In this document: piece by piece, positions 13,361-57,510 of the stretch
Layout: each line of letters opens with the position of its first letter
How positions within the stretch are numbered: position 1 is the stretch's first letter
NCBI RefSeq assembly: GCF_022045235.1
Contig: NW_027266266.1
Span: forward strand, 6,200,001 to 6,264,000
DNA: 64,000 nt
Source of the DNA: Haliotis cracherodii
Taxonomy: Eukaryota
Reading direction: 5' to 3'
The notes under the pieces: generated by a model
What the model saw: only the letters and a program-made list of their open reading frames with translations
Database searches by the model: none
What the model was told of the DNA's origin: nothing
Program-made: the position numbers and the translations under genes

Positions 13361-13377
13361 GTTTCCACATGTATAAA

Positions 13378-13570
13378 TGACCCGTGAAGATCCGGGGTAG
13401 AATAGGTCTTCAGCAGCCCATGCTTGCCGTAAAAGATGACTATGCTTGTCGTAAGAGGCGACTGACGGGATCAGGTGGTCAGACTTGCGGACTTGGTTGA
13501 TGCATGTCATCGATCCCAATTGCGTGGATCGATGCACATTATATCAATCACTGGATTGTCTAGTCCAGAC
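13378..13570 (+). mobile_element. Family N element, 3' truncated, between satellite subarrays A and B
   Basis: Matches the 5' two-thirds of 23482-23752. Confidence 0.88.
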
Positions 13571-18193: not shown

Positions 18194-19288
18194 TACTTAC
18201 TTACTTATATTGGAGATTTAACGTGCGCTTTCCGACTGCAAGCGTATGTCGCACACGGGCCCGGCCAGGCCATTTAATGTGTTTCCAAAAAGGGGAAAAG
18301 TGAGTTTGTGCAACCCAGGAGGGGGCTTTAGGGGTTACTTATATAGTAATTTTGAAATTTTGAGATTTGGAAAGAATGCCAAGAGTGGGTGGGGGACGAA
18401 CTAAGGGAGCTGTGTGTGTTGGGTGGTTATCTAATAAGGTAGTTTTGATTTTAATATTTTATTTGGGGTTTAAATGCGACTAATTAGTCCTGTTTTTATT
18501 AGGTATATGCCTAAGGCTTTGAATTTTTCTAATTTATTTTGTGGATTTAGGATTGATTCTAGTGTAAGTCCGGTTTTAAGATTTAGGGTGGTCTGTAGTG
18601 TTGTTCGATGTGTTTGGCAGTGTGTGCAGTGAATGAGTACGTGTTCTGGTGTTTCTTGTTGTTTGCAATGTGGGCAGTTTCCTGTTGTGTGTAGTTTAGC
18701 TATTTTACGGTGATTATTTAGTTTGGTGTGGCCTGTTTGTAGTTTGGTAATTATTCTGTCGATTTTTTTGGATGGGTGTAGTATTTTGGGTTTATTTAGG
18801 GTTTTTTTGAGTACTTTCCTGATTTGGCTATTTGAGTTTTGGTATATATTTTGCCATTTTTTGTTAATTTTTTGTTTAGTGACACTTTTGATTTCTGATT
18901 TTGAGCTGGGTAAGTTTAGGCTTATTTCTGGGAGTTTAAGGGATAATTTTGCTGCTTTATCTGCCTTTTCATTTCCAAAGATTCCTACGTGGGCGGGGAT
19001 CCAAATGAACTCTATTTGTTTACCTACCTTAGTTAAGTTGTTTGAGCTATTGAGTATTTGATTTATTAGTTTGGGGCGGTTTTTAGTGTTTTTATTTTTG
19101 AGGGCTTGTAGTCCACTGAGGGAGTCGGTTAGGATGAGGATTTTTTGGTGTTTTTTAGATTGCTGATTGTGTAGTGCTGAGGCCATGCCCATTAGTTCGG
19201 CCGTGAATATGGATTGGTTGTTTGGGAGTCGGTAAGATTGTGTGTCTTTGGTTGGTTGTGCGATGTGGACTCCGAAACCTGTGTGTTT
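18194..19288 (-). mobile_element. 5'-truncated I/Nimb-group LINE (RNase H, C-terminal zinc finger, 3' UTR)
   Basis: Frame 19288-18470 is uninterrupted: SIFTAEL, ILTDS, WIPAHVGIFGNEKADKAAK, CPHC..ETPEHVLIHC. Tail CACGTTAAATCTCCAATAT(AAGT)n. Flanked by a 153-bp direct duplication. Confidence 0.9.
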
Positions 19289-19475
19289 TGCGTTGCAACA
19301 AAGCTGGCTATGGTGGTAAAATGAAGTAATTGTGTTTTACAAGAAAGACACAATTCTATGGATAACAACTTCTTTAATACTGTGAAAAGCGACGTTTCGG
19401 TATAGATCCTTATACTGTTGTCAAGCAAGACTGAATGAGGGACATAGTACAGAATATATATAGTAGGTGGAGGAT

Positions 19476-22963: not shown

Positions 22964-23439
22964 TTATTTTGTGCAAAGAGCGCATGTCAGCTCCCAGCCC
23001 TCAACATATGGTGGGCAAGGTAAAGTACCGCATTTAGAGTCGACCAGGTACAAGATATGACCGTTGGTGTTTGCCTTACCCCCTGCGATAGCTTCTGCAT
23101 CGCCATCAACACAGACATAATCAGTATGACCAGTATATTGTTCAGTGGCTCCCCCGAAGAGGTACCCCTTGTATTCCAGGTGCCACCCAGGGAAGCACTC
23201 ATTCCTGGCAGGGACCATGGCAGCACTCCTCCTGTGACGACTGTGACACACCACACACGGGATATCATCTTGAAACAGTTTATGAAGAGGCGCTGTCTCT
23301 GCATCAGTTTGGTACTCGGCACCATAGAGATCGCTTTGTGATCCTACTGGAGAATGGTTGGCGTAGATAGGCGCCTCGGGGAGGCACAGAGTTGTCCCTG
23401 GACCACCCGTGGCCTGGTAATGGCTTCCTCCTGCATAAC
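22964..23439 (-). CDS. Secreted short-chain collagen C4-like protein, exon 4 (last)
   Basis: Acceptor atgtcag|GT. Reads YAGGSHY...LCLP...LYGAEY...DIPCVVC...PARNECFPGWHLEYKGYL...YVCVD...LPCPPY...ELTCALCTK*, the Cys pattern of this invertebrate C4/NC1-like family. Confidence 0.9.
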
Positions 23440-23481
23440 CTGACATTAGCCCAACTGTATTTTAATGTGTGATAAGATAAA

Positions 23482-23752
23482 GTTGGTTTGTTGGTTGTTT
23501 TGTTGTTTAACGCCGCACTCCACAATATTCCAGCTATTTGACGGCGGTCTGTAAATAATCGAGTCTGGACCAGACAATCTAGTGATTGACATCATGAGCA
23601 TCGATCTACGCAATTGGGATCGATGACCTGCATCAACCAAGTCAGCGAGCCTGACCACCCGATCCCGTTAGTCGCCTCTTACGGCAAGCATAGTCGCCAT
23701 TTACGGCAAGCATGGGTTGCTGAAGACCTATTCTACCCCGGATCTCCACGGG
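23482..23752 (-). mobile_element. Nin-domain non-autonomous retroelement without tRNA head (family N), full length
   Basis: Starts CCCGTGGAGATCCGGGGTAGAATAGGTCTTCAG, contains ATGCTTGCCGTAAGAGGCGACTAA, ends GCTGGAATATTGTGGAGTGCGGCGTTAAACAACAA. Other copies at 1-129, 350-557, 9958-10187, 17726-17985, 36135-36370 and several fragments. Confidence 0.85.
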
Positions 23753-23954
23753 CAGTTAAGATAAAGATACTATTTGACTATAGTAGTATGTTTTTTCTTA
23801 TCTACCCGTAAAGATCCGGGGTAGAAGATAAAGATACTATTCGACTATAGTTATTGATTTTCATATTTATGAAATAATAAATACATAAATGTTACATTCA
23901 GTTTTGTGGAGTGGAATTCTGGCACAACTACTCATAAAACCATCTGAGGGAAAG

Positions 23955-24180
23955 TAACTCTTTCAAAATGTTTAATGCTAGACATGTGGAGAACATTTCC
24001 AAATCTGAAACATCAGTGATCAAAGTGATGTCAGATGCGATTCCTTGTATTGAGTTGCACCATATGTTCCCGTGTTTTTCCAGGTCAACAATTGACTTGC
24101 CTTTGCGTGTGTTTGTGACTGGTAACACTGGTGGGTAGGATACGCTGACCGTTTCGGGACCACCTGGTATTATCACTTTT
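23955..24180 (+). mobile_element. Same Naiad-like PLE 3' fragment family, in intron 3 of the C4-like gene
   Basis: AGACATGTGGAGAACATTTCCAAAT...GATGTCAGATGCGATTCC...GGTAGGATACGCTGACCG matches the other copies. Confidence 0.68.
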
Positions 24181-24263
24181 TGATAGTGATTCATATGCAC
24201 ATGCTCATGATACAGTCGGAATCGTACACTCGACGTATAAAAGAGTTTTGTTACATTTTTTAC

Positions 24264-24332
24264 CTTTATACATGACATCATTTCCTGACGGACATGTTGT
24301 CCTCCCCCACCGAGTGAACACAGCTCCTCCTT
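24264..24332 (-). CDS. C4-like protein, exon 3
   Basis: tctag|AA GGAVFTRWGRTTCPSGNDVMYK G|GTAAAA. Phase 1-1, joins in frame to exon 4. GAVFTRWG..CP is the usual start of this domain. Confidence 0.88.
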
Positions 24333-24535
24333 CTAGACATGGCCAGACAAAAAAAACAGATTTCAGTACATACAAATAAATGCACAATGTAAAGACGTTT
24401 TCCGGTGCAAAATGACATGGTTGTGAAACCACGTAAACCTTTGTTGATTTTTATTTGTGCGGTATGGGTTACGAAAGCCTAAACGTTTTCATAGTATTGT
24501 GTCATGTTGTGTCAAAAGACAAAGATAAGTTATAC

Positions 24536-24670
24536 CCAGGTCGCTTCCATGTGGAGTGAAAGTTTCTGGTTGCAGAACCTTCTCTCCCAGATAGAGTCTC
24601 AGCAGTGACCTCAGATCATGCAAGAACCTCCGGTTGGTGGACGGATGTGTGTACGGATTGTAGATATCAG
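24536..24670 (-). CDS. C4-like protein, exon 2
   Basis: ttttttcacag|CT DIYNPYTHPSTNRRFLHDLRSLLRLYLGEKVLQPETFTPHGSDL G|GTATAA. 135 bp, phase 1-1, no stop. Confidence 0.75.
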
Positions 24671-24739
24671 CTGTGAAAAAATAAACATATTCGGTGAAGG
24701 AGCTTCTCTAAGTTTAATTTAGTATCAGATTGTCTGACA

Positions 24740-25635
24740 TACTCACATGATTTGTTCATATTGTAACAGGACATGTCATTAACATAACCACGTGATTTGT
24801 TAATATTGTAACGGGACACGTCAATAATATAACCACGTGATTTGTTCATATTGTAGTGGGACACGTCATTGATATAACCACGTGATTTGTTCATATTGTA
24901 GTGGGACACGTCATTAACATAACCACGTGATTTGTTAATATTGTAGTGGGACACGTCATTAACATAACCACGTGATTTGTTCATATTGTAGTGGGACACG
25001 TCATTAACATAACCACGTGATTTGTTCATATTGTAGTGGGACACGTCATTAACATAACCACGTGATTTGTTCATATTGTAGTGGGACACGTCATTAATAT
25101 AACCACGTGATTTGTTCATATTGTAGTGGGACACGTCATTAATATAACCACGTGATTTGTTCATATTGTAGTGGGACACATCATTAATATAACCACGTGA
25201 TTTGTTCATATTGTAGTGGGATACGTTATTATCATAACCACGTGATTTGTTCATATCGTAGTGGGACACGTCATTAACATAACCACGTGATTTGTTCATA
25301 TTGTAATTGGACACGTTATCATCATAACCACGTGATATATTCATATTGTAGCAGGACACGTCATTAACATAACCACGTGATTTGTTCATATTGTAGCAGG
25401 ACATGTATTTACCAAAACCACGTGATTTGATCATTTCGTAGCAGTTGACGCCATCAACATAAGCACGTGATTTGTTCATATTTTAGTGGGACACGTCATG
25501 AACATAACCACGTGATTTGTTCATATTCTAGCAGGACACGTCATCAACATACCTACATGATTTGTTCATACTGTAGCAGGACACGTATTTACCATAACCA
25601 CGTGATTTGTTCATTTCGTAGCAGGACATGTCAAT
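24740..25635. repeat. 45-bp minisatellite in intron 1 of the C4-like gene
   Basis: Unit AACCACGTGATTTGTTCATATTGTAGTGGGACACGTCATTAACAT, about 20 copies. Confidence 0.96.
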
Positions 25636-25753
25636 TAAGACGAAAATATACACCATGTGTTGTAGGGACGCTTATTCCTTGTTTCATAGAATGCCTGGAT
25701 GTGGAAGGAAAATTGATAGTCGATCGTCTCAGTGTGAATAAACGAACACTTAC

Positions 25754-25808
25754 CTTTGACCATCTCTGCCGCCAGGACGATGATGGTAGCATGCAGCGTT
25801 AACGTCAT
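25754..25808 (-). CDS. C4-like protein, exon 1 (probable signal peptide)
   Basis: ACAACC-ATG, MTLTLHATIIVLAAEMVK, then G|GTAAGT consensus donor, phase 1. Spliced product 244 aa. Confidence 0.7.
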
Positions 25809-25816
25809 GGTTGTGG

Positions 25817-25849
25817 ACTGAATACAACCCATGCGGTTGTGGTTATAAA
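25817..25849 (-). promoter_or_regulatory. TATA-like box plus initiator of the C4-like gene
   Basis: Minus-strand TTTATAA (25849-25843) lies about 30 nt before TCAGT (25821-25817), directly ahead of the ATG. Confidence 0.5.
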
Positions 25850-27949: not shown

Positions 27950-28455
27950 AATTACAACTTCGTTCTTTCAGTGCGTCGCTTCCGTACCGACGGCGGTACC
28001 GTTATGGTAAACAGGTGTTGTCGTTGTACAAAGGCATTGAAAACTTCATATTAGCATGTCACATCAGGCCACAAGGTTGCGCTGAACTCAATATCTCGTG
28101 TGACCGCCCGGGCAGCAATGACGGTTCTTCTGCATCTCTTCGGCATTGACTGGATAAGTGTACGAATTCTGTCCTGCGGAATTCTGCGCCATTCTGCTTG
28201 TAACGCGTTGGCCAGTTGTGGGAGTGTCTGCGGCGTGGTCTGACGTTTACGTACACGTCGATCGAGTTCATCCCAGAGGTGTTCGATTGGGTTGAGATCT
28301 GGAGATCTCGACGGCCAGGGCGTTTTGACACACGGTTTGTCGAATATCAGGCCACAAACGTTTTCCAATAACATATATCCAATTAATATACCGTGTCTTT
28401 TTGTGTAGTCAAGTTCAATTCACTACTACCTGTGCGTTTCTTTTTTGGAAGTTTC
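27950..28455 (-). mobile_element. Internally deleted Tc1-type transposon
   Basis: WPSRSPDLNPIEHLWDEL..L..EW..IP..I..LI.SMPKRC transposase C-terminus. TIR-like AAAAAAGAAACGCA at ~28433-28446 also occurs at ~44495-44508. Confidence 0.85.
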
Positions 28456-29000: not shown

Positions 29001-29522
29001 CTAGAACTGCAGGAATAGAGCTTGACATAAAGGGAAAGCTGTCGTTTGTTTGTATTCCAGGCGCCAATTAGTGAAGCACTTATTCCTGGCAAAGTCCACA
29101 CACGTCATAAACATAAGGCGCTGCCTGTTAGACATCCATCAGTTTGGTTTAAACATATTTTATTTCAAAAGAAATCTGGATCAGTAAACAAGCCAAGCCT
29201 GCTTATGTAAATACCTCTCCAGGTAACAACTTAACAACAGCTGGTTATATATAAAATTGTGCTAAACATAAACATACCAAATGCACAAATGAAATACATG
29301 AAGCCAATACATTAAAGCAAGTTGAAGCCCTCAATATCCCAGTATAGTACAGGAAACACTGAATGTGTGCATAGCGCATATCGACGTGCTTACCTGTGCC
29401 TCGAGCTTTGTACCAGAACCGATGTGCGTGTCGCAGGGACGACGTCCACAAAGACGTTAACGAATAATGACACACAAATGTGTGTGACATTCAGTTTTAA
29501 TGTCGACGAAAGTTGCGCGTAG

Positions 29523-29799
29523 GGTGAGTGAGTTGGATTTAACGCCGCTTTTAACAGTATTCCATTTATATCACGGCGTGTCAGCTTAATGTGGGAGGAA
29601 AGCCCGAAGTGATGCAGGTCTCAGACATTTACCACTTCGATGAAACCCACGAGCACGGGTATGGTGCTGACAAACCAAGAAATATAATCGGGGCGAACCG
29701 GGATTCGAACCCACAATCATAGATTTCTGGCGTGCCCAAGAGACGCAACTTTGCACAGCGAATAGCGGCGCCTTAGACGACTGGGCCACCCGTTCCCCC
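29523..29799 (-). mobile_element. Family V SINE
   Basis: 11-bp TSD GTTGCGCGTAG. Confidence 0.92.
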
Positions 29800-30123
29800 G
29801 TTGCGCGTAGAAAATGGTCCTGATTAGAGTCAGTCTCTCCTGGTGAATGGTTTACAAGAAGATAAGAGGGTGACACCTACGCTTAAAGACGTAGACTTAA
29901 CGACAAGACAGTTCTGTAAACGATAGTTTTGAGACCATAAAGAATCACACGCACATACGCACGCACGCACATACGCACACACGCACGCAATGAGCACACA
30001 CATATTACAAGATCCTCAAAGGCAGATGCAGTCAGCTTTAGAACGAATTAAGGATGTCAATGGTTGATCGCCCGGAAATGATACATTCGTGAAATGTTTG
30101 GAATCTCCCACTGCATGTACATA

Positions 30124-30440
30124 CCGCCTCCGTGGTCTAGTGGTAGAGCGTCCGCCCGGAGACGTACCAAAAGACGTTAACAGGTGGTACTTGTTGTTAC
30201 CCTGTCTGGCGCTCGGCATTTAGGGGCTGAAACAAGGACTGGTCGGCTCGGAGTCAGTATACTGTGTCTGAGTGGTGTATTCATGTTAAACTGCGACATG
30301 GTATCTCAGTGAGCTAGCACTATAAATCGGCATCAGTCCGGACTAGTACAAGCAGCCACACAAACACACACATGTACATGCACGTCGCTATATAAGTGCA
30401 ATAATCTTGGACGCGACGTTAAACCCAATTTCATTTCATT
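30124..30440 (+). mobile_element. Family M SINE
   Basis: Homology to 36521-36877; B box deleted. Confidence 0.87.
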
Positions 30441-32009
30441 TTGTGTTGAGGATACAACTTTGATCTCAAGGTACAGTCGCTATGCACGTTGTGTTCACTA
30501 TACTTCATCCATTGACAGGAACGACAGGCACAACCAGGTGTACCTCATCACAGCTCTTTGACTTAATATGGTTTCATGTTCTGACAATGTGTCATTTCCC
30601 AACATTGCCAATGACGCCGGTAGCAAAGCAACTACATGATGAACACATTGCACGAGAACACATTTAATGCAAGTCTATAATGAAGGTCGGCCTAGTAGTA
30701 CTGTGTCAATGGCTTGTCTACCCTTCCTCTGGGTACACGCTCAATCACTGACACGGTTGCTGACACATCCTTCATGGTATACACCAACAAGCAAACCCTT
30801 TTCCCCAAATTCCATACTTTCGAAACTCTCCCAGTCAGCCTAAAACTCATCCCCCTGGAACTCTTGTCAAGGGTAATCTCCTCTTCTAAGAGGGTTTGAG
30901 CTTTTATGTTTGCCTAAAGCAAAATCGCCTTTACTCTGTTGTCCGAGGTTCGACCTTGTTTCTCTGCCATTACGTGTGTAGATTCGAAATGTCATCGCCA
31001 GAAATCAACCAGTCTTGATTATCCCGCGATATGCCAAGGAGAGGCACGGGCCACCGAGCCATGGATGCCCGTGCCTGTAATAAAAACACAAGATGAGATT
31101 GGGTTAAATGGCCGAGGGTGTGCAGGTACTAGTGGGCTACTAAGCTGCTAGTTGTGTATACCAAAATGCTGCCGTTGCCATGGCCACTAGCGTGGCCAAA
31201 GGCGATTCGCAGCTAGCGCTGATGGCCTGAGACTGCTACCGCTGTCCGCCCCCCACGGTACCATATTTAAACGCTACTATTGCTTGGCAACTACCACGCT
31301 GCCAAAAGCAACTACCGCTGCTGACCTAAATCAGACTACCGCTGCCCGGCCCCAGGTAGCCGGCCAAAGCAGATACCACTGCCTGGCACAATTAGCAAAA
31401 CCATTGTGCGACTACCGCCGCGGACCCAACTGTCAGCTACTGCTTGACAAGACGACTTCCGCCGCCGGGCCGATATACGTGGCAATTGGTTGCCCAACGT
31501 ATGTTATTTTACGATTCCGCGGCTGAAAAGTCGGGAAAGACAAGGTTCCCACTGAGAAGCAGTTAACCCCGGAAAGGTTCCTGCTGAAAAGCAGGTGGCC
31601 TTAAGCACGAGTATTAATTTGGAAGCTAGTTACTTTGTTACTAGCAGTGTAGCCCACAAGAACTCCGCCACAAAGCAGTCTTGAATATCTGCCAAAACAT
31701 TCCTCAGAGAAAAAAGCAGCAACATAATGATAAAAAGTATATCAACGGAACACTAAAATTCAGTGATGACACACGGTGTTCTCACAAAAAGGGAGCACGT
31801 TCATGTTGTGAAAAGCATCAGATTAACATTGACAACAGCAGGTAATAGATATTTTAACAAACAGATAATTGGATGAAGCCAGATGTCAAGTAAGAAGAAC
31901 AAATAGCACACGGATAATGACGCCAGGTGTTCAGTAAGGATAAGGATTAAAAGAATTAATAGGATTAAACAGTTGTGACAAGCTGATTAGATCCTAATTA
32001 AAATATTCT

Positions 32010-32645
32010 GTTGCTTGATCAGATCTTCACTGGCAGACGGGATGTATTACCCACTGTTGATGAAAGGTTTGTGACGGCGGATTTCTGTAGCTTCTGAGAG
32101 TTTTCTTTCTTTTGGTGAATCTCTGATGTCTGGCTGAGAGGATTTTGACTTTGTTAAACTGATTTTGATGGCTAAGGAACTTTTGCTGGTGACTGATTTG
32201 CTGTCTGCTTTGGCTGTTGAAGTCTCATGGTCTTTGATGCGGGTATCTCCTGGACGGGAGGTTTCACCAAAGTATAGGCACCACAGTCACAATTAATCTT
32301 ATAGATTACTCCTTTGGGGAGTTGCCTGTAGGAGGGGGGTTGCGACCATTAGCTTGGAGGATGGTTCTGAGGGATGGGGAGACAATGAAGAAGGTGTCGA
32401 TGCTGTTTGGTGCTGTTTGGTAATCTGCTGATTTGATGAGGGGTCTTGCCAATGCTGGATAGGGTGACTGTGTTTGGGGCGGATTCGGGTCTGGTTGGTT
32501 GGTTGGTCTGGATGCCACACTTTGTATTGGGGTTGGTTAGAGTTTAAATGAATGTACTGGTCTGAATGGGTAGGTTTTCTGTAGACAGTGGTTTAGATCT
32601 TGCTGTTGGGGTCTCTGGATACAAGGACGTGTAGGAAGGGAGCTG
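32010..32645 (-). mobile_element. Decayed Penelope-like element (RT C-terminal motifs plus GIY-YIG endonuclease)
   Basis: PFLHVLVSRDPNSKI*TTVYRKPTHSDQYIHLNSNQP, then GVIYKINCDCGA / YFGETSRPGDTRIKDHE ... KVKIL ... EATEIRRHKP; stops and frameshifts present. Confidence 0.9.
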
Positions 32646-35062
32646 TTGGTTGTTGTCTCTGTTGTGCTCTGGATACAAGGACGTGTAGGAAGGGAGCTGT
32701 TGGTTGTTGTCTCTGTTGTGCTCTGGCTACAAGGACGTGTAGGAAGGGATCTGTTGGTTGTTGTCTCTGTTGTGCTCTGGATACAAAGACGTGAAGGAAG
32801 GGAGCTGTTGGTTGTTGTCTCTGTTGTGCTCTGGCTACAAGGACGTGTAGGAAGGGAAGGGAGCTGTTGGTTGCTATCTCTGTTGTGCTCTGGCTACAAG
32901 GACGTCTAGGAAGGGAGCTGTTGGTTGTTGTCTCTGTTGTGCTCTGGCTACAAGGACGTGTAGGAAGGGAGCTGTTAGTTGTTGTCTCTGTTGTGCTCTG
33001 GCTACAAGGGCGTGTAGGAAGGGATCTGTTGGTTGTTGTCTCTGTTGTGCTCTGGCTACAAGGACGTGTAGGAAGGGAGCTGTTAGTTGTTGTCTCTGTT
33101 GTGCTCTGGATACAAGGGCGTGTAGGAAGGGATCTGTTGGTTGTTGTCTCTGTTGTGCTCTGGATACAAAGACGTGAAGGAAGGGAGCTGTTGGTTGTTG
33201 TCTCTGTTGTGCTCTGGCTACAAGGACGTGTAGGAAGGGAAGGGAGCTGTTGGTTGCTATCTCTGTTGTGCTCTGGCTACAAGGACGTGTAGGAAGGGAG
33301 CTGTTGGTTGTTGTCTCTGTTGTGCTCTGGCTACAAGGACGTGTAGGAAGGGAGCTGTTAGTTGTTGTCTCTGTTGTGCTCTGGCTACAAGGGCGTGTAG
33401 GAAGGGATCTGTTGGTTGTTGTCTCTGTTGTGCTCTGGCTACAAGGACGTGTAGGAAGGGAGCTGTTGGTTGCTATCTCTGTTGTGCTCTGGATACAGGG
33501 ACGTGAAGGAAGGGAGCTGTTGGTTGTTGTCTCTGTTGTGCTCTGGTTACAAGGACGTGTAGGAAGGGAGCTGTTGGTTGCTATCTCTGTTGTGCTCTGG
33601 CTACAAGGACGTCAAGGAAGGGAGCTGTTGGTTGTTGTCTCTGTTGTGCTCTAGCTACAAGGACGTGAAGGAAGGGAGCTGTTGGTTGTTGTCTCTGTTG
33701 TGCTCTGGATACAAAGACGTGTAGGAAGGGAACTGTTGGTTGTTGTCTCTGTTGTGCTCTGGATACAAAGACGTGTAGGAAGGGAGCTGTTGGTTGTTGT
33801 CTCTGTTGTGCTCTTGATACAAAGACGTGTAGGAAGGGAGCTGTTGGTTGTTGTCTCTGTTGTGCTCTGGATACAAAGACGTGAAGGAAGGGAGCTGTTG
33901 GTTGTTGTCTCTGTTGTGCTCTGGATACAAGGACGTGTAGGAAGGGAGCTGTTGGTTGTTGTCTCTGTTGTGCTCTGGATACAAGGACGTGTAGGAAGGG
34001 AGCTGTTGGTTGTTGTCTCTGTTGTGCTCTGGATACAAGGACGTGTAGGAAGGGAGCTGTTGGTTGTTGTCTCTGTTGTGCTCTGGATACAAGGACGTGT
34101 AGGAAGGGAGCTGTTGGTCGTTGTCTCTGTTGTGCTCTGGCTACAAGGACGTGTAGGAAGGGAGCTGTTGGTTGTTGTCTCTGTTGTGCTCTGGATACAA
34201 GGACGTGTAGGAAGGGAGCTGTTGGTTGTTGTCTCTGTTGTGCTCTGGATACAAGGACGTGTAGGAAGGGAGCTGTTGGTTGTTGTCTCTGTTGTGCTCT
34301 GGATACAAGGACGTGTAGGAAGGGAGCTGTTGGTTGTTGTCTCTGTTGTGCTCTGGATACAAGGACGTGTAGGAAGGGAGCTGTTAGTTGTTGTCTCTGT
34401 TGTGCTCTGGCTACAAGGACGTGTAGGAAGGGAGCTGTTGGTTGTTGTCTCTGTTGTGCTCTGGATACAAGGACGTGTAGGAAGGGAGCTGTTGGTTGTT
34501 GTCTCTGTTGTGCTCTGGCTACAAGGACGTCTAGGAAGGGAGCTGTTGGTTGTTGTCTCTGTTGTGCTCTGGATACAAGGACGTGTAGGAAGGGATCTGT
34601 TGGTTGTTGTCCCTGCTGTGCTCTGGCTACAAGGGAGTGTAGGAAGGGAGCTGTTGGTTGTTGTCTCTGTTGTGCTCTGGCTACAAGTGCCTGTAGGAAG
34701 GGATCTGTTGGTTGTTGTCTGTTGTGCTCTGGATACAAGGACGTGTAGGAAGGGAGCTGTTGGTTGTTGTCTCTGCTGTGCTCTGGCTACAAGGACGTGT
34801 AGGAAGGGAGCTGTTGGTTGTTGTCTCTGTTGTGCTCTGGCTACATGGACGTGTAGGAAGGGAGCTGTTGGTTGTTGTCTCTGTTGTGCTCTGGCTACAA
34901 GGACGTGTAGGAAGGGAAGGGAGCTGTTGGTTGTTGTCTCTGTTGTGCTCTGGCTACAAGGACGTGTAGGAAGGGAGCTGTTGGTTGTTGTCTCTGTTGT
35001 GCTCTGGCTACATGGACGTGTAGGAAGGGAGCTGTTGGTTGTTGTCTCTGTTGTGCTCTGGA
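32614..35062. repeat. 54-bp satellite, ~45 units, derived from a Penelope-like RT coding segment
   Basis: Minus-strand unit ATCCAGAGCACAACAGAGACAACAACCAACAGCTCCCTTCCTACACGTCCTTGT. The last unit runs in frame into PLE RT sequence. Confidence 0.95.
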
Positions 35063-35487
35063 TCCTTTGACAAAAATCTGCGGAGTCTGCACTATAGGAT
35101 TTAGCGTTATGTTGCCATGGAGACAGAGAACAACCACAAACTCCTCTTCCAGCAACAATTGAAAACCTGATGTTTAGCCTACACGAACCTCCATCAGTAT
35201 CGCTACTGATGTCTGGGACTCTGAACATGCATTGTAGAAAATAAAGTGCAGACATTACCGGCTCACATCACGGAAATGTGTGCAGTCAGTCGCCCGTGAA
35301 ATTACTAGTCGTTCCAGTGTCGACTGTTTTGATGGTTATTACCATCACTTAACAAACCATGCCCAATAGACACATGGCGTGTTTAGCGGAGAATGGTACT
35401 TTCTGATTAGATGCTGTATCTGCAATTTGCTATGTTGCTTAGTGATGCCAGAAGTCCGAGCAAAGACGTGCATGGGACGGTTTGATC

Positions 35488-35908
35488 TAGGGCTGGGACG
35501 AGTCCAAATTCACTACCCGGGTACCCACCCCCCTATTACCCGACCCTACCCGGGTACCCACTGTGGGCCTCAGGAGATGTCTCAAAATGTCCGATTGGGA
35601 ACATTTTTAGCATAGCCCTGGCAAAACGTATTTAGATAAACGTATTAAACAATCTGGTCATTCATACACCGAAGCTGAATTAAGTTATATCTTTATTCAC
35701 CCATATGAAAAATCAGAAGAAATGGGTGCACAGTCAGAAAGAAATGCGAACATTAGTGACTTGTAGTGTAGCCATAGAGTTCTGGATAATTTTTGTCATA
35801 AAACAATATAACACGTGACTAACCACGGGTCAGGGTAGTCCTGTGGGTACCCGGGTCCTACTCAGTACCCACCCGACCCGGGTGCCCGAGTTAACCGTCC
35901 CAGCCCTA
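35488..35908. mobile_element. hAT-type MITE
   Basis: TIR TAGGGCTGGGACG / CGTCCCAGCCCTA, exact 8-bp TSD GTTTGATC (35480-35487, 35909-35916), subterminal ACCCG repeats. Confidence 0.9.
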
Positions 35909-36520
35909 GTTTGATCCCAGTTTGCCTACTGAAACTACTGTAGGCACCCTGGAAACTCCCTATTTATGCAATTGTATTGGACCACTATTGAAGTCTTTGA
36001 AAGGTATTTAGAAGTTGGAAGAACACGGATACATGACATTCGTCATGTATAACAATTTGTAGTTTGTAGTCTTTGTAGGCCAACTTCTTGCTCCTTCTTC
36101 AGTTGAATAGAGTTAGCATGTAGAGATGTGAAATATTGTTTTACGCCGCACTCAGAAATATTCCTGCTGTATGACGGCGGTCTGTAAATAATCGAGTCTT
36201 GACCAGACCATCCAGTGATTGACATCATGAGCATCGATCTACACAATGGGATACGATGACCTCAACCAAGTCAGGGAGTATGGCCATCGTTAGTCGCCTC
36301 TTACGATAAGCATAGTCACCTTTTACGGCAAGCATAGGCTGCTGAAGACCTATTCTACCCAAGACCTTCATTGGTCAAATATTAAATAATAATACTTCAA
36401 GAGATAAATAATATGTTTACAAAAGGAACAATGTTTACATATGGCGGGAATAATGTACAAATATAACAATAAAACAACGAAGTCAATGAGATAAAGAGAC
36501 ATTACAATTAAGTACAATGA

Positions 36521-36877
36521 AGGTGAGGTGGGGTGTGGTGAAATGGGGTTTAACGTCGCGTCCATGATTATTGCACTTATATAGCGACGTGCAAGCACGT
36601 GTGTGTGTGTGGCTGCTTGAACAAGTCCGGATTGATGCCGATTTATAGTGCTAGCTCACTGAGATATCATGCCGCGGTTTAACATGAATACCCCACTCAG
36701 ACACAGCATACTGACTCCGAGCCGACCAGTCCTTGTTTTAGCCCCTTAATGCCGAGCGCCAGACAGGGTAACAACAATTACCATCTGTTCACGTCTTTTG
36801 GTATGACGCGGCCGTCATCGAACTCCGGACCTTCCGCTATCCGGGCGGACGCTCTACCACTAGACCACGGAGGCGGT
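36521..36877 (-). mobile_element. tRNA-headed SINE with Meta-domain-like body (family M)
   Basis: Head CCGCCTCCGTGGTCTAGTGGTAGAGCG, body CGTCATACCAAAAGACGT..CCTGTCTGGCGCTCGGCATTAAGG, internal (CA)n, tail GCGACGTTAAACCCCA. TSD AGTACA(A/G)TGAAGG. Confidence 0.88.
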
Positions 36878-37027
36878 CAGTACAGTGAAGGCGTAGTGAA
36901 GGGGTTGGGTGAGATAACACGGAGCTGACTATAGTAACATCAACCATGAGGTAATCAAGATTTCGAAATGGGTTGATGATATGATTAAGTCACTGTGAAG
37001 TACACGCTGGTATGTATTTGTTGCCTG

Positions 37028-37255
37028 TGGGGTAACGGGTGGCCCAGTCGTCTAAGGCGACGCGATTCGCTGTGCAGAGTTGCGTCCCTTGGGCACACCA
37101 GAAACCTATCATTATGGGTTCGAATCCCGGTAAGCCCCGATTATGTTTCTAGGTTTGTCAGCACCATACCCAAGCTCGTGGGTTTCACCGAAGTGGCAAA
37201 CGTCTGAGACCTGCATCACTTCGGGCTTTCCTCTCACTTTTTGCTGTCAGACGCC
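37028..37255 (+). mobile_element. Family V SINE, 3' truncated
   Basis: Head and body match the other copies. Confidence 0.88.
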
Positions 37256-37439
37256 GCACTGCACTACCTCCGCCATGCGATGGAGGCCTGTTAAAAAACC
37301 GGACAATCAAGTGATGGACCAGCACATTTAGTGACGTAGCACATTTACTAATTTTGTTGAAACTAAAAACGATACATAAGAAATCTCTTGTAAAAGCAGA
37401 GTCGTTTGTTGATTCCGGCTAAAACATGAACATGTCAAA

Positions 37440-37720
37440 TAGTGGTTATATCTGGTGTTTGCAAAACGGTGAGCGTATCCTACCCCACCGGCGGCACCCG
37501 TCACAAATACATGTAAAGGCAAGGCAAGTGTTAACCTGAAAAAAAGCACACAGGAACATATGGTACAAGTCACAATAGGGAATTGAGTCGGACATCGTGT
37601 TGGTCACTGATGCAACACATTTGGAAATGTATTCCACATGCCTCCTATTAATCGTTTTGAAAGCTTCACTGAGGGCGTGCATGTTCTTATCCTGATCAAT
37701 CAACTTTTGAGCAAGAATTG
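37440..37720 (-). mobile_element. Same Naiad-like PLE 3' fragment family
   Basis: LAQKLIDQ..AFKTINRRHVEYISKCVASVTNTMSDSIP plus tail. Further pieces at 26368-26450, 31764-31800, 44940-45140 and 59437-59520. Confidence 0.68.
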
Positions 37721-38243
37721 ACATCAAAGGCTGGGGCTGCTGGCAGATTGCTCGAGATGAAGCGAAAGTCATCACACTTGGCAAAATGGCAAAATACCCA
37801 TTTTTTCATCATACAAGAACAGCTCCAATAATATACATATAGCATTTACACTATTTACGTTTACGAGAAGTCTTCCAAATTGAAAGGCAGAGGCTAACCC
37901 AGAAATTGGCACGCACAGTGCCAGTCCACACAAAACGAGAGCAAATGCTATGGATACCAGTAAACAGTATCACTGTACTTTAACACTATATAGTTAATAC
38001 GGTAATTTACAGACTGCTCACTCAGACTGCCCACCCCCTCCTATGTAAATCCTTGGCATTTCTCTTTGTAGATGTCTTATTCTCTCTATTAATTTCAGAA
38101 GGCCCTCAAACTTGAAGCATAATCGTGAAATGCAGATAGTATGTGAAGAAATAACATTCATGTTAATTTTTACCCTGGATACAGAATTATATATATTGAC
38201 TATTCTCGGTTAGTTTTATTGTTTTTATGCGATTTTCTTGGTA

Positions 38244-39287: not shown

Positions 39288-40837
39288 AGACAGAATAGGT
39301 TTGCAAGATGTTTTAAGAACTGACTTACAATTGAGTGTGACATGGCTGATTATGTCTGCGGATGGAGTTCGTTGCTCATGTAATAATCTATTTGTTTGTC
39401 TGACCAATACTCGATTATTCATCAGATGACGTGTCGCTGAAAACCTCTCGAAAGTGTCGTAGTTAAACATCCATTCACTCACTAACCTTTTTAATTGTAT
39501 TGTAATAAAATAAATTCAAATTTTGTTAAATACGTATTCAAACTGATCGGGTTTTGTGAGGATCTGGCTTAGAATAGGTCGCAAGCAACGTATGCTTTTG
39601 TAAAAACCATCTAAGATGGATCGGGTCGGTCGTCTCTGTGACTTGATTGATTCATAGACTCAAACCACAAGGTACTTATGACCTATCCGGCCATAGCATC
39701 CCAACGTGGAGAAGAGTACCGAAACAGGATGTGGTTCGGGCAGGCAGACAGACGTTTTATGATAATCCCCATGTGGCAAGGTATTTTTAAAGACCGTCAG
39801 TTAACTGATAAATCTGCTAAAATCTGTTAAATCTGCGTAACTTGACTAAAAATCTAATCATGTACATCACGTGACAAATGTTAATATCCAATCTGCATTG
39901 TAGTATGGGCCTTGATATAAATTACTGAATAAGATGTCTGTCTGTCTGTCTGTCTGTCTGATTTATGATAAATTATTCTTTTGAGTTTCGTTTGTTGTTG
40001 ATGTTGTCTTGTCCAGTCTAATGCAGAAATTAGTCAATTTCATGAATTGTTTAATAAAGTATGTATGATCAATCTGGAATTTACTTCTTAATAACACGGC
40101 TGTGAGGAGTTTCGTCACTTCTTGTTGTTTGTTTTATCACATCTTGTTGTTGTTTGTTTTTCTATGCCCCAGTCAGTTCTATTCAGTTATAGACAGCAGC
40201 CTGTAAATAATGTGCCTGTGCCTAGGAGCAACGTCGTTCACCGTCGGGGTTCCATGACAAGCGATCCGCCAAGTCGCAAAGTCGCCAAGCATGACCAACA
40301 GTTCCATTTAGTCGCCTGTTTTGCGAATAGAATAGTTTACTTGTCATTAAAATAAAAAAAGGTCATCGTTAAAAGAAAACCCTATCATGATTGTGATGAG
40401 ATATATGAGGAAAGCACATACGCTTTTGTCAAGTCATAAAATGGTGCACGTCTTTCCTGTAGTTGAAGTAGAGCTGGCAAAAACACTGTGCCTTGCTGAG
40501 AATATTGCGGTGGCCGGAGATAGCACGAGATGATAAGCGACAGAACGAGGCGAGAAAGCAATAAATAGTTAAAGCAAGTAAGCGATAGAGCAAGAAAACG
40601 ATAAAGCGAGAAAGCAATATAGAGCGAGAAAGCAATATTTCACATAATGCGGTACATGTTACCCTTTATACCTAGGATTTTGAACTTTGGTTGATATAGA
40701 CACAGAATGCTATCTCATTTCGTGTGGATCAAACTGGCCCGTTGGCTAAATTCTCTCAATTTTCCGCTACAGGCCACATTAGAACTGTATTACCCTACTC
40801 ACTCGAAGTAACTATCAACACAGATTTTCTGTTACAG

Positions 40838-42115
40838 ATGCGGGCACTGCACATCAGCATATCCGTCCTTTCAACACTTTTACTTACTGAATGTTCTCTC
40901 GCCTTAGACGTCGGTGTGAGTAAAGCCTCGACTACGACAATAAACCACAGCACCCACTCGTCAACACCGACTACAAGGACAAACACGTCTACCTTGACGA
41001 ATGTTACCCAGACCAAGCCAAAAGTCACTCGTCGGACAACGCCTGATAATGTACCCGGATTAGTCAGCGCAGAAGTGTCGAGAAAAGGAACATTCATCAT
41101 TAATCTAATTCTTAAACCCATCTTGTGTATTTCCGGTTTTGTGATGAACGTCATCGGATGTTGTGTACTTCTCCACAAGTCGTTACGTCACTCTTCCTAC
41201 CATTATCTGTTGGGTCTATTAATAGCTGACTGTGGGTTTCTTCTCTGTGGCATCCTGCACATGCCGACGCATATATCAAGAGAGTACGACGTTGTGTATG
41301 CAAGCTACCTGTCATCTGTGCTGGTTATTCCCGTTTGGCAATATATGGAAAGAGCCTTTTCCAAAGTGTCGTGCTACATTATCTGTATCTTAGCTCTGGA
41401 GAGACTTATAGCTATATCCTTCCCGCTCAAGGTCAAGACTTTGTTCCTCGTCCGCCATTCGGGAAAACTCACCACAGCTCTGTTTGTCATCATATTCATG
41501 TTACATATTCCACGCATATTCCTGATACGCTTTGTATGGAGATTCAGCCGACAGTTCAACGTATCCATGTATGTTAGAGAACCTAAAGCCTACCACGAGC
41601 CACTGAGGTCCTTTATGACAATTTACATCAATTTCGTCCTGAAAATTGTCATGACGTATATCCCACCGTTCCTTCTTCTTGTGTTTAACATCGGTATCTG
41701 GATTCAATTATCTGTCATCAGAAGTCGACGCAAGTCCCTCTTCGGTACGGTATCAGATGAGCAATGGAAAGTGACCTTGACCTTAATGATCATTTCTACG
41801 TTTTTTCTGATAGTTTACATTCCACTTATTGCAGTTAATGTTCTGGAAACACTGGATCCAGCACGATTTTCCCGCGTGGGCACAGAACGCAATTTTAGAG
41901 AACTATTCAGCAGTATCTCGTCTCTCGGCTGGACCATCAACAGCGCCAACGACTTCATCATCTACGTCGTCACCAACGTCAGGTTCAGGGTCACGTTCAA
42001 AAAAATGTTTTGTTGCAACAAGGAAACCCTAAACGTGACGCCTTCGACACAAATGTCAAGTTCAGGGTCACGTTTAAGAAGCTATGTTTTACCAAAACAA
42101 AATGGAAACCCCTAA
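40838..42115 (+). CDS. Orphan class A GPCR (FMRFamide-receptor-like / molluscan chemosensory-like), copy A, 425 aa
   Basis: ATG directly follows acceptor ttttctgttacag. Signal peptide, Thr-rich N-terminus with sequons, 7 hydrophobic segments, GxxxN, LLIAD, LERLIAI, FLIVYIP, NSANDFIIY, helix 8 RFR, CC. Confidence 0.92.
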   Translation: MRALHISISVLSTLLLTECSLALDVGVSKASTTTINHSTHSSTPTTRTNTSTLTNVTQTKPKVTRRTTPDNVPGLVSAEVSRKGTFIINLILKPILCISGFVMNVIGCCVLLHKSLRHSSYHYLLGLLIADCGFLLCGILHMPTHISREYDVVYASYLSSVLVIPVWQYMERAFSKVSCYIICILALERLIAISFPLKVKTLFLVRHSGKLTTALFVIIFMLHIPRIFLIRFVWRFSRQFNVSMYVREPKAYHEPLRSFMTIYINFVLKIVMTYIPPFLLLVFNIGIWIQLSVIRSRRKSLFGTVSDEQWKVTLTLMIISTFFLIVYIPLIAVNVLETLDPARFSRVGTERNFRELFSSISSLGWTINSANDFIIYVVTNVRFRVTFKKMFCCNKETLNVTPSTQMSSSGSRLRSYVLPKQNGNP

Positions 42116-42271
42116 CGTGACGACAACTCCATCATCTACCTCATCACTAACGTTCAGGGCCAACGTTTTATTGCCATAGTAACAGGGACACATTGAACGT
42201 GAAAACTGACGACAGTCGAGTGTTGATTTGTGAAACTAGTGGCTCAAAACATGATGAACATTCTATGTCGT

Positions 42272-43402
42272 CGGCGTACTATGACACCTTGATAGCGTAC
42301 TATGACACCATGACGGCGTACTATGACACCATGATAGCGTACTATGACACCATGACGGCGTACTTCGACACTTTGACGGCGTACTATGACACTTTGACGG
42401 CGTACTATGACACCATGACAGCGTATTATGACACCATGACGGCGTACTATGACACCATTTCGGCGTACTATGACAAGTTGACGGCGTACTATGACAAGTT
42501 GACGGCGTACTATGACACTTTGACGGCGTACTATGACACCATGGCGGCGTACTATGACAAGTTGACGGCGTACTTTGACACTTTGACGGCGTACTATGAC
42601 ACCATGATGGCGTACTATGACAAGTTGACGGCGTACTATGATACTTTGACGGCGTACTATGACACCATGACGGCGTACTATGACACCATGATGGCGTACT
42701 ATGATAATTTGACAGCGTACTATGACACTTTGACGGCGTACTATGACAATTTGACGGCGTACTATGACACCATGACGACGTATTATGACACCATGACGGC
42801 GTACTATGACACTGTGACGGCATACTATGACACTATGATGGCGTACTATGACACTTTGACGGCGTACTATGACACTATGGCTACGTACATTGGCACTGTG
42901 ACGGCGTACTATGACACTATGGCTACGTACATTGGCACTGTGACGGCGTACTATGACACTATGGCTACGTACATTGGCACTTTGACGACGTTCTATGACA
43001 CTATGGCTACGTACTTTGGCACTGTGACGCCGTTCTATGGCACTATGGCTACGTACATTGGCACTTTGACTGCGTACTATGACACTATGGCTACGTACAT
43101 TGGCACTGTGACGCCGTTCTATGGCACTATGGCTACGTACATTGGCACTGTGACGGCGTTCTATGACACTATGGCTACGTACTTTGGCACTTTGACGCCG
43201 TTCTATGGCACTATGGCTACGTACTTTGGCACTTTGACGGCGTACTATGGCACTATGGCTACGTACATTGGCACTGTGACGGCGTTCTATGACACTATGG
43301 CTACGTACATTGGCACTGTGACGGCGTTCTATGACACTATGGCTACGAACATTGGCACTTTGACGGCGTTCTATGACACTATGGCTACGTACATTGGCAC
43401 AG
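42272..43402. repeat. 21-bp minisatellite downstream of GPCR copy A, turning into a 42-bp dimer after ~42870
   Basis: Unit ACGGCGTACTATGACAC(TTTG/CATG). Confidence 0.96.
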
Positions 43403-48574: not shown

Positions 48575-50155
48575 TAAAGTATCATAGTACGCCGCCAAAG
48601 TGTCATAGTACGCCGCCATAGTGTCATAGTACGCCGTCAAAGTGTCATAGTACGCCCTCAAAGTGTCATAGTACGCCCTCAAAGTGTCATGTTACGCCTT
48701 CATAGTGTCATAGTACGCCGCCATAGTGTCACAGTACGCCGCCATAGTGTCAAAGTACGCCGCCATAGTATCATAGTACGCCGCCATAGTATCATAGTAC
48801 GCCGCCATAGTGTCATAGTACGCCGTCATAGTGTCTTTGTATGCCTTCATAGTGTCACAGTACGCCATAAAAGTATCATAGTACCCCGTCAAAGTGTCAT
48901 TGTACGCCGCCATAGTGTCATAGTACGCCATCAAAGTATCATAGTACGCCGTCATAGTGTCATAGTACGCCGCCATAGTGTCATAGTACGCCGCCATAGT
49001 GTCATAGTACGCCGCCATAGTGTCATAGTACGCCGTCATAGTGTCTTTGTATGCCGTCATAGTGTCACAGTACACCATCAAAGTATCATAGTACGCCGCC
49101 ATAGTGTCATAGTACGCCGCCAAAGTGTAATAGTACGCCGCCATAGTGTCATAGTACGCCCCCATAGTGTCATAGTACGCCGTCATAGTGTCATAGTACG
49201 CCGTCATAGTGTCATAGTACGCCGCCATAGTGTCATAGTACGCCGCCATAGTGTCATAGTACGCCGCCATAGTGTCATAGTACGCAGTCATAGTGTCTTT
49301 GTATGCCTTCATAGTGTCATAGTATGCCGTCAAATTGTCATGTTACGCCGTCATAGTGTGATTGTACGCAATCATAGTGTCACAGTACGCCGTCAATAGT
49401 GCCATAGTACGCCGTCATAGAGCCATAGTACGCCGTTATGGTGTCGTAGTATGCCGTCACAGCGTCATAGTGTCATAGTTCGCCGCCATAGTGCCATAAT
49501 ACGCCATCATAGTGTCATATTACGCTTTCAAAGCGTCATAGTAAGCCGTCATAGCCTCATAGTACGCCGTCATACTGTCATAGTACGGTATTAATGTGTC
49601 ATAGTACGCCGTCACAGTGCCATAGTACGCCGTCATAGTGTCATAGCCGCGTCCTAATGGCATAGTACGCCGTCAAAGTGTCATAATACACCGTCAAGTG
49701 TCACAGTACGCCGTCATAGTGTCTTAGTACGCTATCAAAGTCTCATAGTACGCCGTTATTGGGTCATAGTACGCCGTCACAATGCCATAGTACGCCTTCC
49801 TAGTTTCATAGTTCGCCGCCATAGTGTCACAGTACGCCGTTAAAGTGTCATAGTACGCTATCAAAGTGTCAAAGTAGGCCGTCATCGTGTCATAGTACGC
49901 CATCATAGTGCCAATGTAGGTAGCTATAATGTAAAAGTACGCCGTCAAAGTGTCATAGTACGACGTCAAAGTGTCATAATACGCCATCAAAGTGCCATAG
50001 TACGCCGTCAAAGTGTCATAGTACGCCGTCAAAGTGTCATAGTATGACGTCATAGTGTCATAGTACGCCGTCAAAGTGTCATGGTACGCCATCAAAGTGT
50101 CATAGTACGCCGTCAAAGTGTCATAGTACGCAGTCAAAGTGTCATAGTACGCCGA
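48575..50155. repeat. Same 21-bp minisatellite, inverted, downstream of GPCR copy B
   Basis: Reverse-complement units GTGTCATAGTACGCCG(T/C)CA(A/T)A. Confidence 0.96.
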
Positions 50156-50310
50156 CGACATAGAATGTTCATCATGTTTTGAGCCACTAGTTTCACAAAA
50201 CAAGACTCGGCTGTCGTCAGTTTTCACGTTCGATGTGTCTCTGTTACTATGGAAACAAAACGTTGGCCCTGAACGTTAGTGATGAGGTAGATGATTGAGT
50301 TGTCGTCACG

Positions 50311-51588: not shown

Positions 51589-51824
51589 CTGTAACAGAAA
51601 ATCTGTGTTGATAGTTACTTCGAGTGAGTGGGGTAATATAGTTCTAATGTAGCCTGTAGCGGTAAATTGAAGAGCATTTCGCCAACGAGCCAATTTCGAG
51701 GATAATCAAGAAACTGCAAGTCCCGAGGCTTGAGCTTCATCATAAATTTCACAGAGGACACATAATCCGCTTTTTCGCGGTGCCAGTCAATTATTTCACA
51801 CAAAAAAACATTTATTCGTGAATT

Positions 51825-57323: not shown

Positions 57324-57510
57324 GGTGGCCGCGTTGTGGGACTATGAAAATAAAACAGGATAATAACCGATATAATATGAATGTATGAGAACATGGAAAA
57401 ATGAATATGTCGTAAATACATTATGTATCACGCAATGCAATCACGGGCGCGGGGGAACCCTTTGTACTTACAGGGAGTTAGATAGTTATATATGAGAGCA
57501 TAGTTTCACT

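What the first reader, a model, noticed from the sequence alone, without database searches (positions are those of the whole stretch)
32010..35062. A 2.4-kb satellite born from a conserved reverse-transcriptase motif of a Penelope element
Seen: on minus each 54-bp unit reads ..PFL(H/D)VLV(S/A)R, and the final unit continues in frame into DPNSKI*TTVYRKPTHSDQYIH and then a GIY-YIG remnant. Known: LPFLDVLV.R...T.VYRKPTH.DQY is the standard PLE RT C-terminal core. A CCAGAG microhomology bounds the unit, and a few units show the ancestral-type Asp. Inference: the 5' truncation junction of the insertion was amplified ~45-fold, a direct record of satellite birth from TE coding sequence. It also creates a mucin-like open frame (STTETTTNSSLPTRPC) as raw material for a de novo exon.
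Basis: partly seen in the sequence, partly recalled or inferred. Interest (0 to 1): 0.7.

Follow-up and report, generated by a model that had tools for sequence, protein, structure and literature searches.

The report
Satellite seeded by a Penelope deletion
This 2.4-kb run of 54-base repeats, likely in an abalone, is a multiplied scar inside a dead jumping gene, where a deletion brought two identical 8-base words close together; a related species carries the unit once and another likely hundreds to a thousand times, so the site likely records a repeat array growing from one seed by an already known copying slip.

Summary
The array is real: 45 units plus one extra 8-bp word, 32613-35063, found only here in the genome. 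It comes from a dead Penelope/Poseidon-type element. It does not sit at the 5' truncation, however. Each unit spans an internal deletion of about 410 bp (RT motifs A-D). The unit joins about 12 bp from just upstream of motif A to about 42 bp of the LPFLDV region. The word ATCCAGAG is native to both sites, and the deletion put the two copies 54 bp apart. The true 5' end is a 48-bp inverted fragment. One contig of organism C crosses the orthologous site with exactly one unit. Depth on the unit is about 5x (B), 20-60x (E) and 450-1,200x (D) that of single-copy contigs. All units share changes that arose after insertion, so amplification was likely late and at DNA level. Whether C's one unit is ancestral or a collapse is unresolved. 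The mucin-like frame shows no coding constraint. The mechanism is known (Haber-Louis flanking repeats); the 1-to-about-1,000 series is unusually complete.

The parts
31802..32009 (-). 3' non-coding end of the Penelope-like copy, with one copy of a 44-bp motif that forms tandem arrays in sister copies
   Evidence: alignments of family loci stop at 31802-31803; motif match; arrays in L026, L051, L071, L008
32010..32500 (-). decayed linker and C-terminal GIY-YIG endonuclease remnant (GVIYKINCDCG), with frameshifts and stops
   Evidence: (69-85% to 39 other places)
32511..32612 (-). RT C-terminal core/thumb start (DPNSKI*TTVYRKPTHSDQYIH); a second internal deletion of about 60 codons lies at 32500/32511
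   Evidence: tblastn to P0001 aa 578-614, 68% identity, E 2e-14; next match starts at aa 677
32613..35063 (-). array of 45 units (41x54, 3x59, 1x52 bp) plus one extra 8-bp word; each unit spans the deletion junction
32613..32620 (-). downstream 8-bp direct repeat ATCCAGAG, native to the VLVSRDP codons
   Evidence: exact in 8 of 10 family copies that hold this site
35056..35063 (-). upstream 8-bp direct repeat ATCCAGAG, native to the CQKIQS codons just before RT motif A
   Evidence: exact in L053, one mismatch in L002, L057, L061
35054..35105 (-). 52-bp RT piece (AKSYSADSADFCQRIQS), the 5' side of the roughly 410-bp deletion
   Evidence: 82-86% to L002, L053, L054; matches P0002 aa 174-193
35103..35150 (+). 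48-bp inverted fragment of the RVKFTMETENNQQLPF region, head-to-head with the sense copy (3-bp overlap); the true 5' end of the insertion
   Evidence: 84% to L051, 85-89% to L004, L005, L054; pairs with the first unit, z = -2.6
33654..35267 (-). 538-codon open frame, mostly STTETTTNSSLPTRPC repeats, with an ATG at codon 5; no sign of coding function

Best explanation
The array is a single-locus minisatellite whose 54-bp unit spans an internal deletion junction in a dead Penelope/Poseidon-type element, and it likely grew by DNA-level slippage or unequal exchange between two 8-bp direct repeats long after the element inserted. Step 1 (shown): a 5'-truncated copy with a short head-to-head inversion lies at 31802-35150. 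Step 2 (shown): about 410 bp of RT is missing, which places two native ATCCAGAG words 54 bp apart. Step 3 (inferred, about 55%): deletion and inversion arose together at insertion, by twin priming or a template jump, because the deletion's 3' breakpoint lies inside the 46-nt stretch that templated the inversion; otherwise the deletion came later on DNA. Step 4 (inferred): the one-unit form aged for most of the element's history. Step 5 (inferred from the anatomy and the known model): misalignment between the 8-mers duplicated the unit. Step 6 (shown for this array): multi-unit block duplication and spread of shared variants enlarged it. Step 7 (shown by depth, not by assembly): copy number now differs among related species from one to likely about a thousand.
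For: Junction anatomy. The length equals n units plus one extra 8-mer. The junction word occurs only in this array, 33 of 33 matches. The RT motif occurs singly at 17 of 17 places outside the array. One-unit allele: a 757-nt X8 contig lies on 35002-35478 (record 114-590) and on 32444-32674 (record 529-757); the overlap is 62 nt = 54 + 8. X8 has zero depth in both unit-unit junction bins. An X14 contig (other study) shares its private changes. Late amplification: the copy is 8.5-9.3% diverged from its family; units differ by 3.2% from the modal unit and 5.0% pairwise; orthologous DNA of C, D and E differs by 3.9-4.3%. All 45 units share a 1-bp loss and an A>G change that family copies lack, and the edge units are not more diverged (2 and 0 differences). 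DNA-level growth: 12 of 23 variants are shared, and a 5-unit block recurs at a lag of 7 units with 1 difference. A conspecific run shows the same 50:50 variant split (75.7 of 153.3; 21 of 45 in the window), so the array is not an assembly artefact.
Against: Polarity is unresolved. C is no more distant from this genome than D or E, which carry arrays, so C's single unit may be a collapse. It carries a derived change (unit position 30) also seen in 6 of 45 units; chance coincidence is 17-50%. Concerted evolution can make an old array look young. Adjacent units are not significantly more alike than random (p = 0.14). Depth comes from summed Logan contigs, which the tool says is no copy number: it gave 8-10x for a conspecific run against 45 units in the window. 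I did not see the letters of the X8 contig, only its placement. The coincidence of inversion and deletion is one event (about 3% by chance, my estimate).
Confidence: 0.8

Rival explanations
1. The array arose once in the common ancestor of these species, and organism C collapsed back to one unit by recombination between the terminal units. The mechanism of birth is the same, but C is not the ancestral state.
For: Arrays are indicated in A, B, D, E and in part of the X14 data. Divergences are star-like. Unit diversity (5.0% pairwise) is about equal to species divergence (about 4%). C shares one derived variant with 6 units.
Against: The shared variant has a 17-50% chance probability. D's units lack the commonest variant of A. 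Unsorted ancestral polymorphism would give the same pattern. No species tree was available.
Confidence: 0.45
2. The Penelope RT made the first tandem copies during insertion by re-aligning on the 8-nt repeat of a deleted RNA, as telomerase does on its template; later homogenisation erased the trace.
For: PLE RTs are sister to telomerase RTs (PMC8557442, passages). The 8-nt repeat has the layout of a template alignment region. PLE insertions are often partial tandems.
Against: All units, edge units included, and C's single unit share indels that family copies lack. The array is about three times younger in divergence than the insertion. No dispersed deleted template exists in the genome. None of 45 family loci has a coding-region array with period of 40 bp or more.
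Confidence: 0.05
3. One reading: the host/PLE 5' truncation junction was amplified, with part of the unit coming from the target site.
For: The unit is a junction sequence bounded by microhomology.
Against: The 5' side of the junction is PLE RT, at 82-86% to three family copies, and PLE sequence continues to 35150.
Confidence: 0.02
4. The array is, or is becoming, a mucin-like exon.
For: A 538-codon open frame with an early ATG, on the same strand as a host gene whose start codon is at 25832.
Against: Five of six frames are open in the modal unit; 6 of 21 variants are synonymous against 25% expected; there are four frameshifting units and one stop; no Pfam match; one unit only in C.
Confidence: 0.04

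Closest known systems
TE-derived minisatellites begun by flanking 5-10 bp direct repeats (Haber and Louis 1998 model; Alu cases of Jurka and Gentles; both as described in PMC3389668 and PMC6947457, passages read; originals not read)
   Same: Unit flanked by a short direct repeat, local in-place expansion inside a TE copy, different unit numbers in related species. PMC3389668 counts 300 such arrays among 7,276 human TE-derived ones.
   Different: Here the two repeats lie about 460 bp apart in the intact element and became neighbours only through a deletion; the source is RT coding DNA of a PLE; the range appears to reach about 10^3 copies.
Maize CRM1TR/CRM4TR tandem repeats (PMC3648361, passages read)
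   Same: The monomer junction is an internal deletion junction of a retrotransposon, and later growth is by DNA-level exchange.
   Different: Those come from LTR/UTR of centromeric Ty3/gypsy elements, and the authors found no single-step direct repeats; this unit is 54 bp, coding-derived, intergenic, with the repeat in place.
Penelope-related satellites and retrozymes (PMC11955569 and PMC11846391, passages; 10.64898/2026.07.22.740005, abstract)
   Same: Tandem DNA derived from PLE sequence.
   Different: Retrozymes come from the pLTR, carry hammerhead ribozymes and spread to many loci. This unit has no Rfam match and one locus. The passages read report homology only, with no precursor locus; their supplementary tables were not read.
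Penelope/Poseidon EN+ PLE insertions (PMC8557442, PMC3846280, passages read)
   Same: RT followed by C-terminal GIY-YIG, 5' truncation, head-to-head inverted 5' copy, microhomology-mediated internal deletions.
   Different: The inverted copy is only 48 bp of internal RT rather than a run to the pLTR; no target-site duplication was found.

Membership tests
Penelope/Poseidon EN+ PLE | PLE-type reverse transcriptase | tested here: met
   window tail 68% to P0001 aa 578-614, E 2e-14; P0001 has RVT_1, and relatives P0007 and P0011 have RVT_1 plus GIY-YIG. Direct Pfam scan of the decayed frames: 0 of 9 hit.
Penelope/Poseidon EN+ PLE | C-terminal GIY-YIG with two cysteines between GIY and YIG (CCHH motif) | tested here: met
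   GVIYKINCDCG downstream of RT; family copies read on to YIG and both histidines; the window copy has lost the second histidine region
Penelope/Poseidon EN+ PLE | no CX2-5CxxC zinc finger in the RT-EN linker (separates it from Neptune and Nematis; PMC8557442) | tested here: met
   by inspection of the linker in L002, L005 and P0001
Penelope/Poseidon EN+ PLE | 5' truncation with adjacent inverted copy | tested here: met
   35103-35150; 12 of 45 family loci have an opposite-strand piece within 60 bp (L007 and L010 may be one duplicated locus)
Penelope/Poseidon EN+ PLE | pLTR with hammerhead ribozyme; target-site duplication | tested here: inconclusive
   no Rfam match at E<=1 in 29500-38000; no TSD seen; the copy is about 9% decayed, and TSD-less insertions are described (PMC3846280)
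Penelope/Poseidon EN+ PLE | phylogenetic placement in the clade | not tested
   no labelled reference set was on hand
Minisatellite begun by flanking direct repeats | 5-10 bp direct repeat at both ends; length = n units + one repeat | tested here: met
   8 bp; 2,443 + 8 = 2,451 bp; 0.7% of non-array positions have an 8-mer repeat 20-100 bp away
Minisatellite begun by flanking direct repeats | single-unit form at the orthologous site | tested here: met
   X8 757-nt contig
Minisatellite begun by flanking direct repeats | the single-unit form is ancestral | tested here: inconclusive
   star-like divergences, no root
Classical satellite DNA | long, abundant arrays | tested here: not met
   2.45 kb at one intergenic locus in G000; depth suggests it may be met in organism D
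Non-LTR retrozyme | pLTR-derived unit with hammerhead ribozyme, many loci | tested here: not met
   coding-derived 54-bp unit, no Rfam match, one locus
De novo exon or gene | coding constraint | tested here: not met
De novo exon or gene | spliced, translated transcript | not testable with these tools
   no RNA holder listed, which is no evidence either way

The most novel reading that the evidence does not exclude
One retrotransposition accident (twin priming with a template jump) left a dormant seed: two 8-bp repeats 54 bp apart beside an inverted repeat. The seed survives unamplified in one species, where a point change has broken the upstream repeat. It grew to about 5, 45, about 50 and about 1,000 copies in sister species, becoming a true satellite in one. 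That would be a complete, dated birth series of a satellite from reverse-transcriptase coding DNA at one orthologous site.
Probability: 0.35. Interest if true: 0.62.

Novelty: new member of a known kind. Interest (0 to 1): 0.44.

Why it matters
The first duplication of a minisatellite is rarely seen. PMC3389668 states that known models explain only 6% of TE-derived arrays. This locus gives the source sequence, the reason the seed repeats are adjacent, a one-unit allele and a range up to likely about 10^3 copies among species about 4% apart. The flanking-repeat model, and the step from minisatellite to satellite, can therefore be tested by PCR and long reads. It adds a simple route: deletions in dead elements manufacture the seed. 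It is not a new mechanism, and no function is indicated.

Tried and rejected
Pfam scan of the decayed frames with X at stops: no hit; identity was then established through homologues. Rfam: nothing. TSD search: nothing convincing. Gradient of similarity along the array: not significant. Whether the three Asp-type units are retained or reverted: undecidable; all three carry the derived variant at position 53. Hairpin between the inversion and the first unit (z = -2.6, 2 of 200 shuffles): expected from the shared origin; its geometry does not obviously favour duplication, so it is not used as support. Literature: 8 searches found no description of this repeat or of a minisatellite from PLE RT coding DNA with its precursor. 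The library lacks most subscription journals, and no supplements were read.

Full report
Setting. The window is G000:C3:6200001-6264000 in a 1.18-Gb genome. The nearest named proteins are from Haliotis, so it is likely an abalone. The window holds eight long tandem arrays, so arrays as such are common here. The feature lies between a four-exon short-chain-collagen-C4-like gene (25832-22967, minus strand) and an intronless GPCR frame at 40700-42112. Untranslated exons could not be mapped.

The array. TRF reports period 54, 45.1 copies, 94% matches. There are 41 units of 54 bp, three of 59 and one of 52, 2,443 bp in all. One extra copy of the word ATCCAGAG completes 32613-35063. Units differ by 5.0% pairwise and 3.2% from the modal unit. 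Twelve of 23 variants are shared, and a five-unit block recurs seven units later with one difference. Neighbours are not significantly more alike than random pairs (p = 0.14). A conspecific run shows the commonest variant at 49% against 21 of 45 in the window, so the array is not an assembly artefact.

The element. The tail matches 39 other places in the genome at 69-85% (40 of 314 candidates scored). An open stretch of sister copy L005 finds 11 proteins with RT and, in some, GIY-YIG domains. The window tail aligns to P0001 aa 578-614 at 68%. Domain order, the two cysteines inside the GIY-YIG motif and the lack of a linker zinc finger fit the Penelope/Poseidon clade as defined in PMC8557442 (passages read); no tree was built. 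Direct Pfam scans of nine decayed frames gave nothing. The 3' end is at about 31802.

What the unit is. About 42 bp align to the family's TENNQQLPFLDVLVSR region, with a 1-bp loss that splits it over two frames. The DNA beyond the array's far end is not host: 35054-35105 matches L002, L053 and L054 at 82-86% and encodes the stretch just before RT motif A. In L054, which holds both sites, they lie about 410 bp apart. ATCCAGAG is exact at the downstream site in 8 of 10 copies; at the upstream site it is exact in L053 and one base off in three more. So a deletion of RT motifs A-D set two native 8-mers 54 bp apart, and the unit is the interval between them. Beyond that lies a 48-bp inverted fragment (35103-35150), head-to-head with the sense copy. 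Such inversions are typical: 12 of 45 family loci have one within 60 bp (the window's own and duplicate loci were dropped first), and PMC8557442 and PMC3846280 describe them and microhomology-mediated deletions (passages). The deletion's 3' breakpoint falls inside the 46 nt that templated the inversion. I estimate about 3% for that by chance and infer, at about 55%, one event at insertion; twin priming is recalled from L1 work and comes from no call.

One locus. The junction word matches 33 places, all in this array. The RT motif matches 59 places: 42 in the array and 17 single copies elsewhere. Arrays of period 40 bp or more inside family sequence occur in 4 of 45 loci, all from a 3' non-coding 44-bp motif.

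Other species. Of 21 listed runs, six were laid. Contigs at single-copy depth and about 96% identity show the same insertion in organisms C, D and E. In X8 (C), a contig of 757 nt and depth 34.1 lies on 35002-35478 with record letters 114-590 and on 32444-32674 with letters 529-757. The overlap is 62 nt: one unit plus one 8-mer. X8 has zero depth in both unit-unit junction bins, so a collapsed loop is unlikely. I saw its placement and listed differences, not its letters. It aligns to the first unit without gaps, so it shares the array's indels, and it has a private change inside the upstream 8-mer. X14 (C, another study) has a 350-nt contig with the same private changes that leaves the array after one unit. 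X14 also has unit-junction contigs and a second haplotype sharing two changes with D, so it is polymorphic or mixed. Depth on the unit relative to single-copy contigs is about 5x in B, 23-57x in E and 455-1,186x in D, confined to the unit in D. D's flank contig begins inside the unit, at 35034. The tool warns that summed contig depth is no copy number, and X1 gave 8-10x where the window has 45. Whether D's copies sit here or have spread is unknown.

Timing. The copy is 8.5% (three-point) to 9.3% (43 of 463 sites) diverged from its family. Species differ by 3.9-4.3%, about 2% per lineage, and units by about 2.5-3% from their ancestor. All units share derived changes, and the edge units are not outliers. 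The simplest reading is long decay as one unit, then duplication near the time these species split. Homogenisation could hide an older start.

Polarity. C is not more distant than D or E, so its single unit may be ancestral, an unsorted old allele, or a collapse. It shares one derived base with 6 of 45 units, which chance gives 17-50% of the time. I put collapse at about 45%. Either way the mechanism of birth is unchanged.

The exon idea. A 538-codon frame with an early ATG exists, but five of six frames are open in the modal unit. Six of 21 substitutions are synonymous (25% expected), four units shift frame and one stops it. There is no Pfam match. Expression was not testable.

Comparison. 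It works like the flanking-repeat minisatellites summarised in PMC3389668 and PMC6947457 (passages) and meets that test. It resembles maize CRM repeats, whose monomers span a deletion junction (PMC3648361, passages). Penelope-related satellites are reported (PMC11955569, PMC11846391, passages; retrozyme preprint, abstract only). It is not a retrozyme, and not a classical satellite in this genome. Eight searches found no account of this repeat. The scan's own notes held nothing near or similar, and three other Penelope-linked arrays in other genomes.

Verdict. A new member of a known kind, valuable for its one-unit allele and its range across species. Interest 0.44.

Noticed in passing
window 31870-31945; L026:1913-2643, L071:361-780, L051:1849-2051, L008:1299-1443: A 44-bp motif in this PLE family's 3' non-coding end forms tandem arrays in 4 of 45 loci (up to 16.6 copies at 99%). 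Contig depth near it peaks at 27,000-156,000 in all four related-species runs, so it may be a second, dispersed repeat source from the same family.
   Followed up: partly
window 35480-35909: A very high-copy MITE with 14-bp terminal inverted repeats. It is absent at this site in D (joint skipping 429 bp with 8 shared letters) and apparently in C, so it is likely a lineage-specific insertion.
   Followed up: partly
window 40700-43392 and 48576-51705: A near-identical inverted duplication: an intronless rhodopsin-type/Srw GPCR frame plus a 21-bp array on each arm, in opposite orientations; a third, more distant GPCR lies at 55917-57341.
   Followed up: no
window 22967-25832, minus strand: Four-exon short-chain-collagen-C4-like gene; a 45-bp array (24737-25638) fills most of its first intron.
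   Followed up: partly
run X14 on window 35303-35390: Two haplotypes, one like X8 (organism C) and one sharing two changes with organism D: polymorphism, hybrid or mixed sample.
   Followed up: no
window 18473-19336 and 28054-28419: An RNase H-bearing LINE 3' fragment with a long open frame, and a DDE_3 transposase remnant.
   Followed up: no
L111-L122: Younger, less decayed Penelope-like families exist in the genome (88-95% to P0001; open frames to about 700 codons), distinct from the old family studied here.
   Followed up: no
window 2810-6349, 8855-9753, 10901-15710, 62920-64000: Four further long arrays (22, 47, 35/70 and 63/126 bp); none matched the PLE copies tested; origins not traced.
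   Followed up: no
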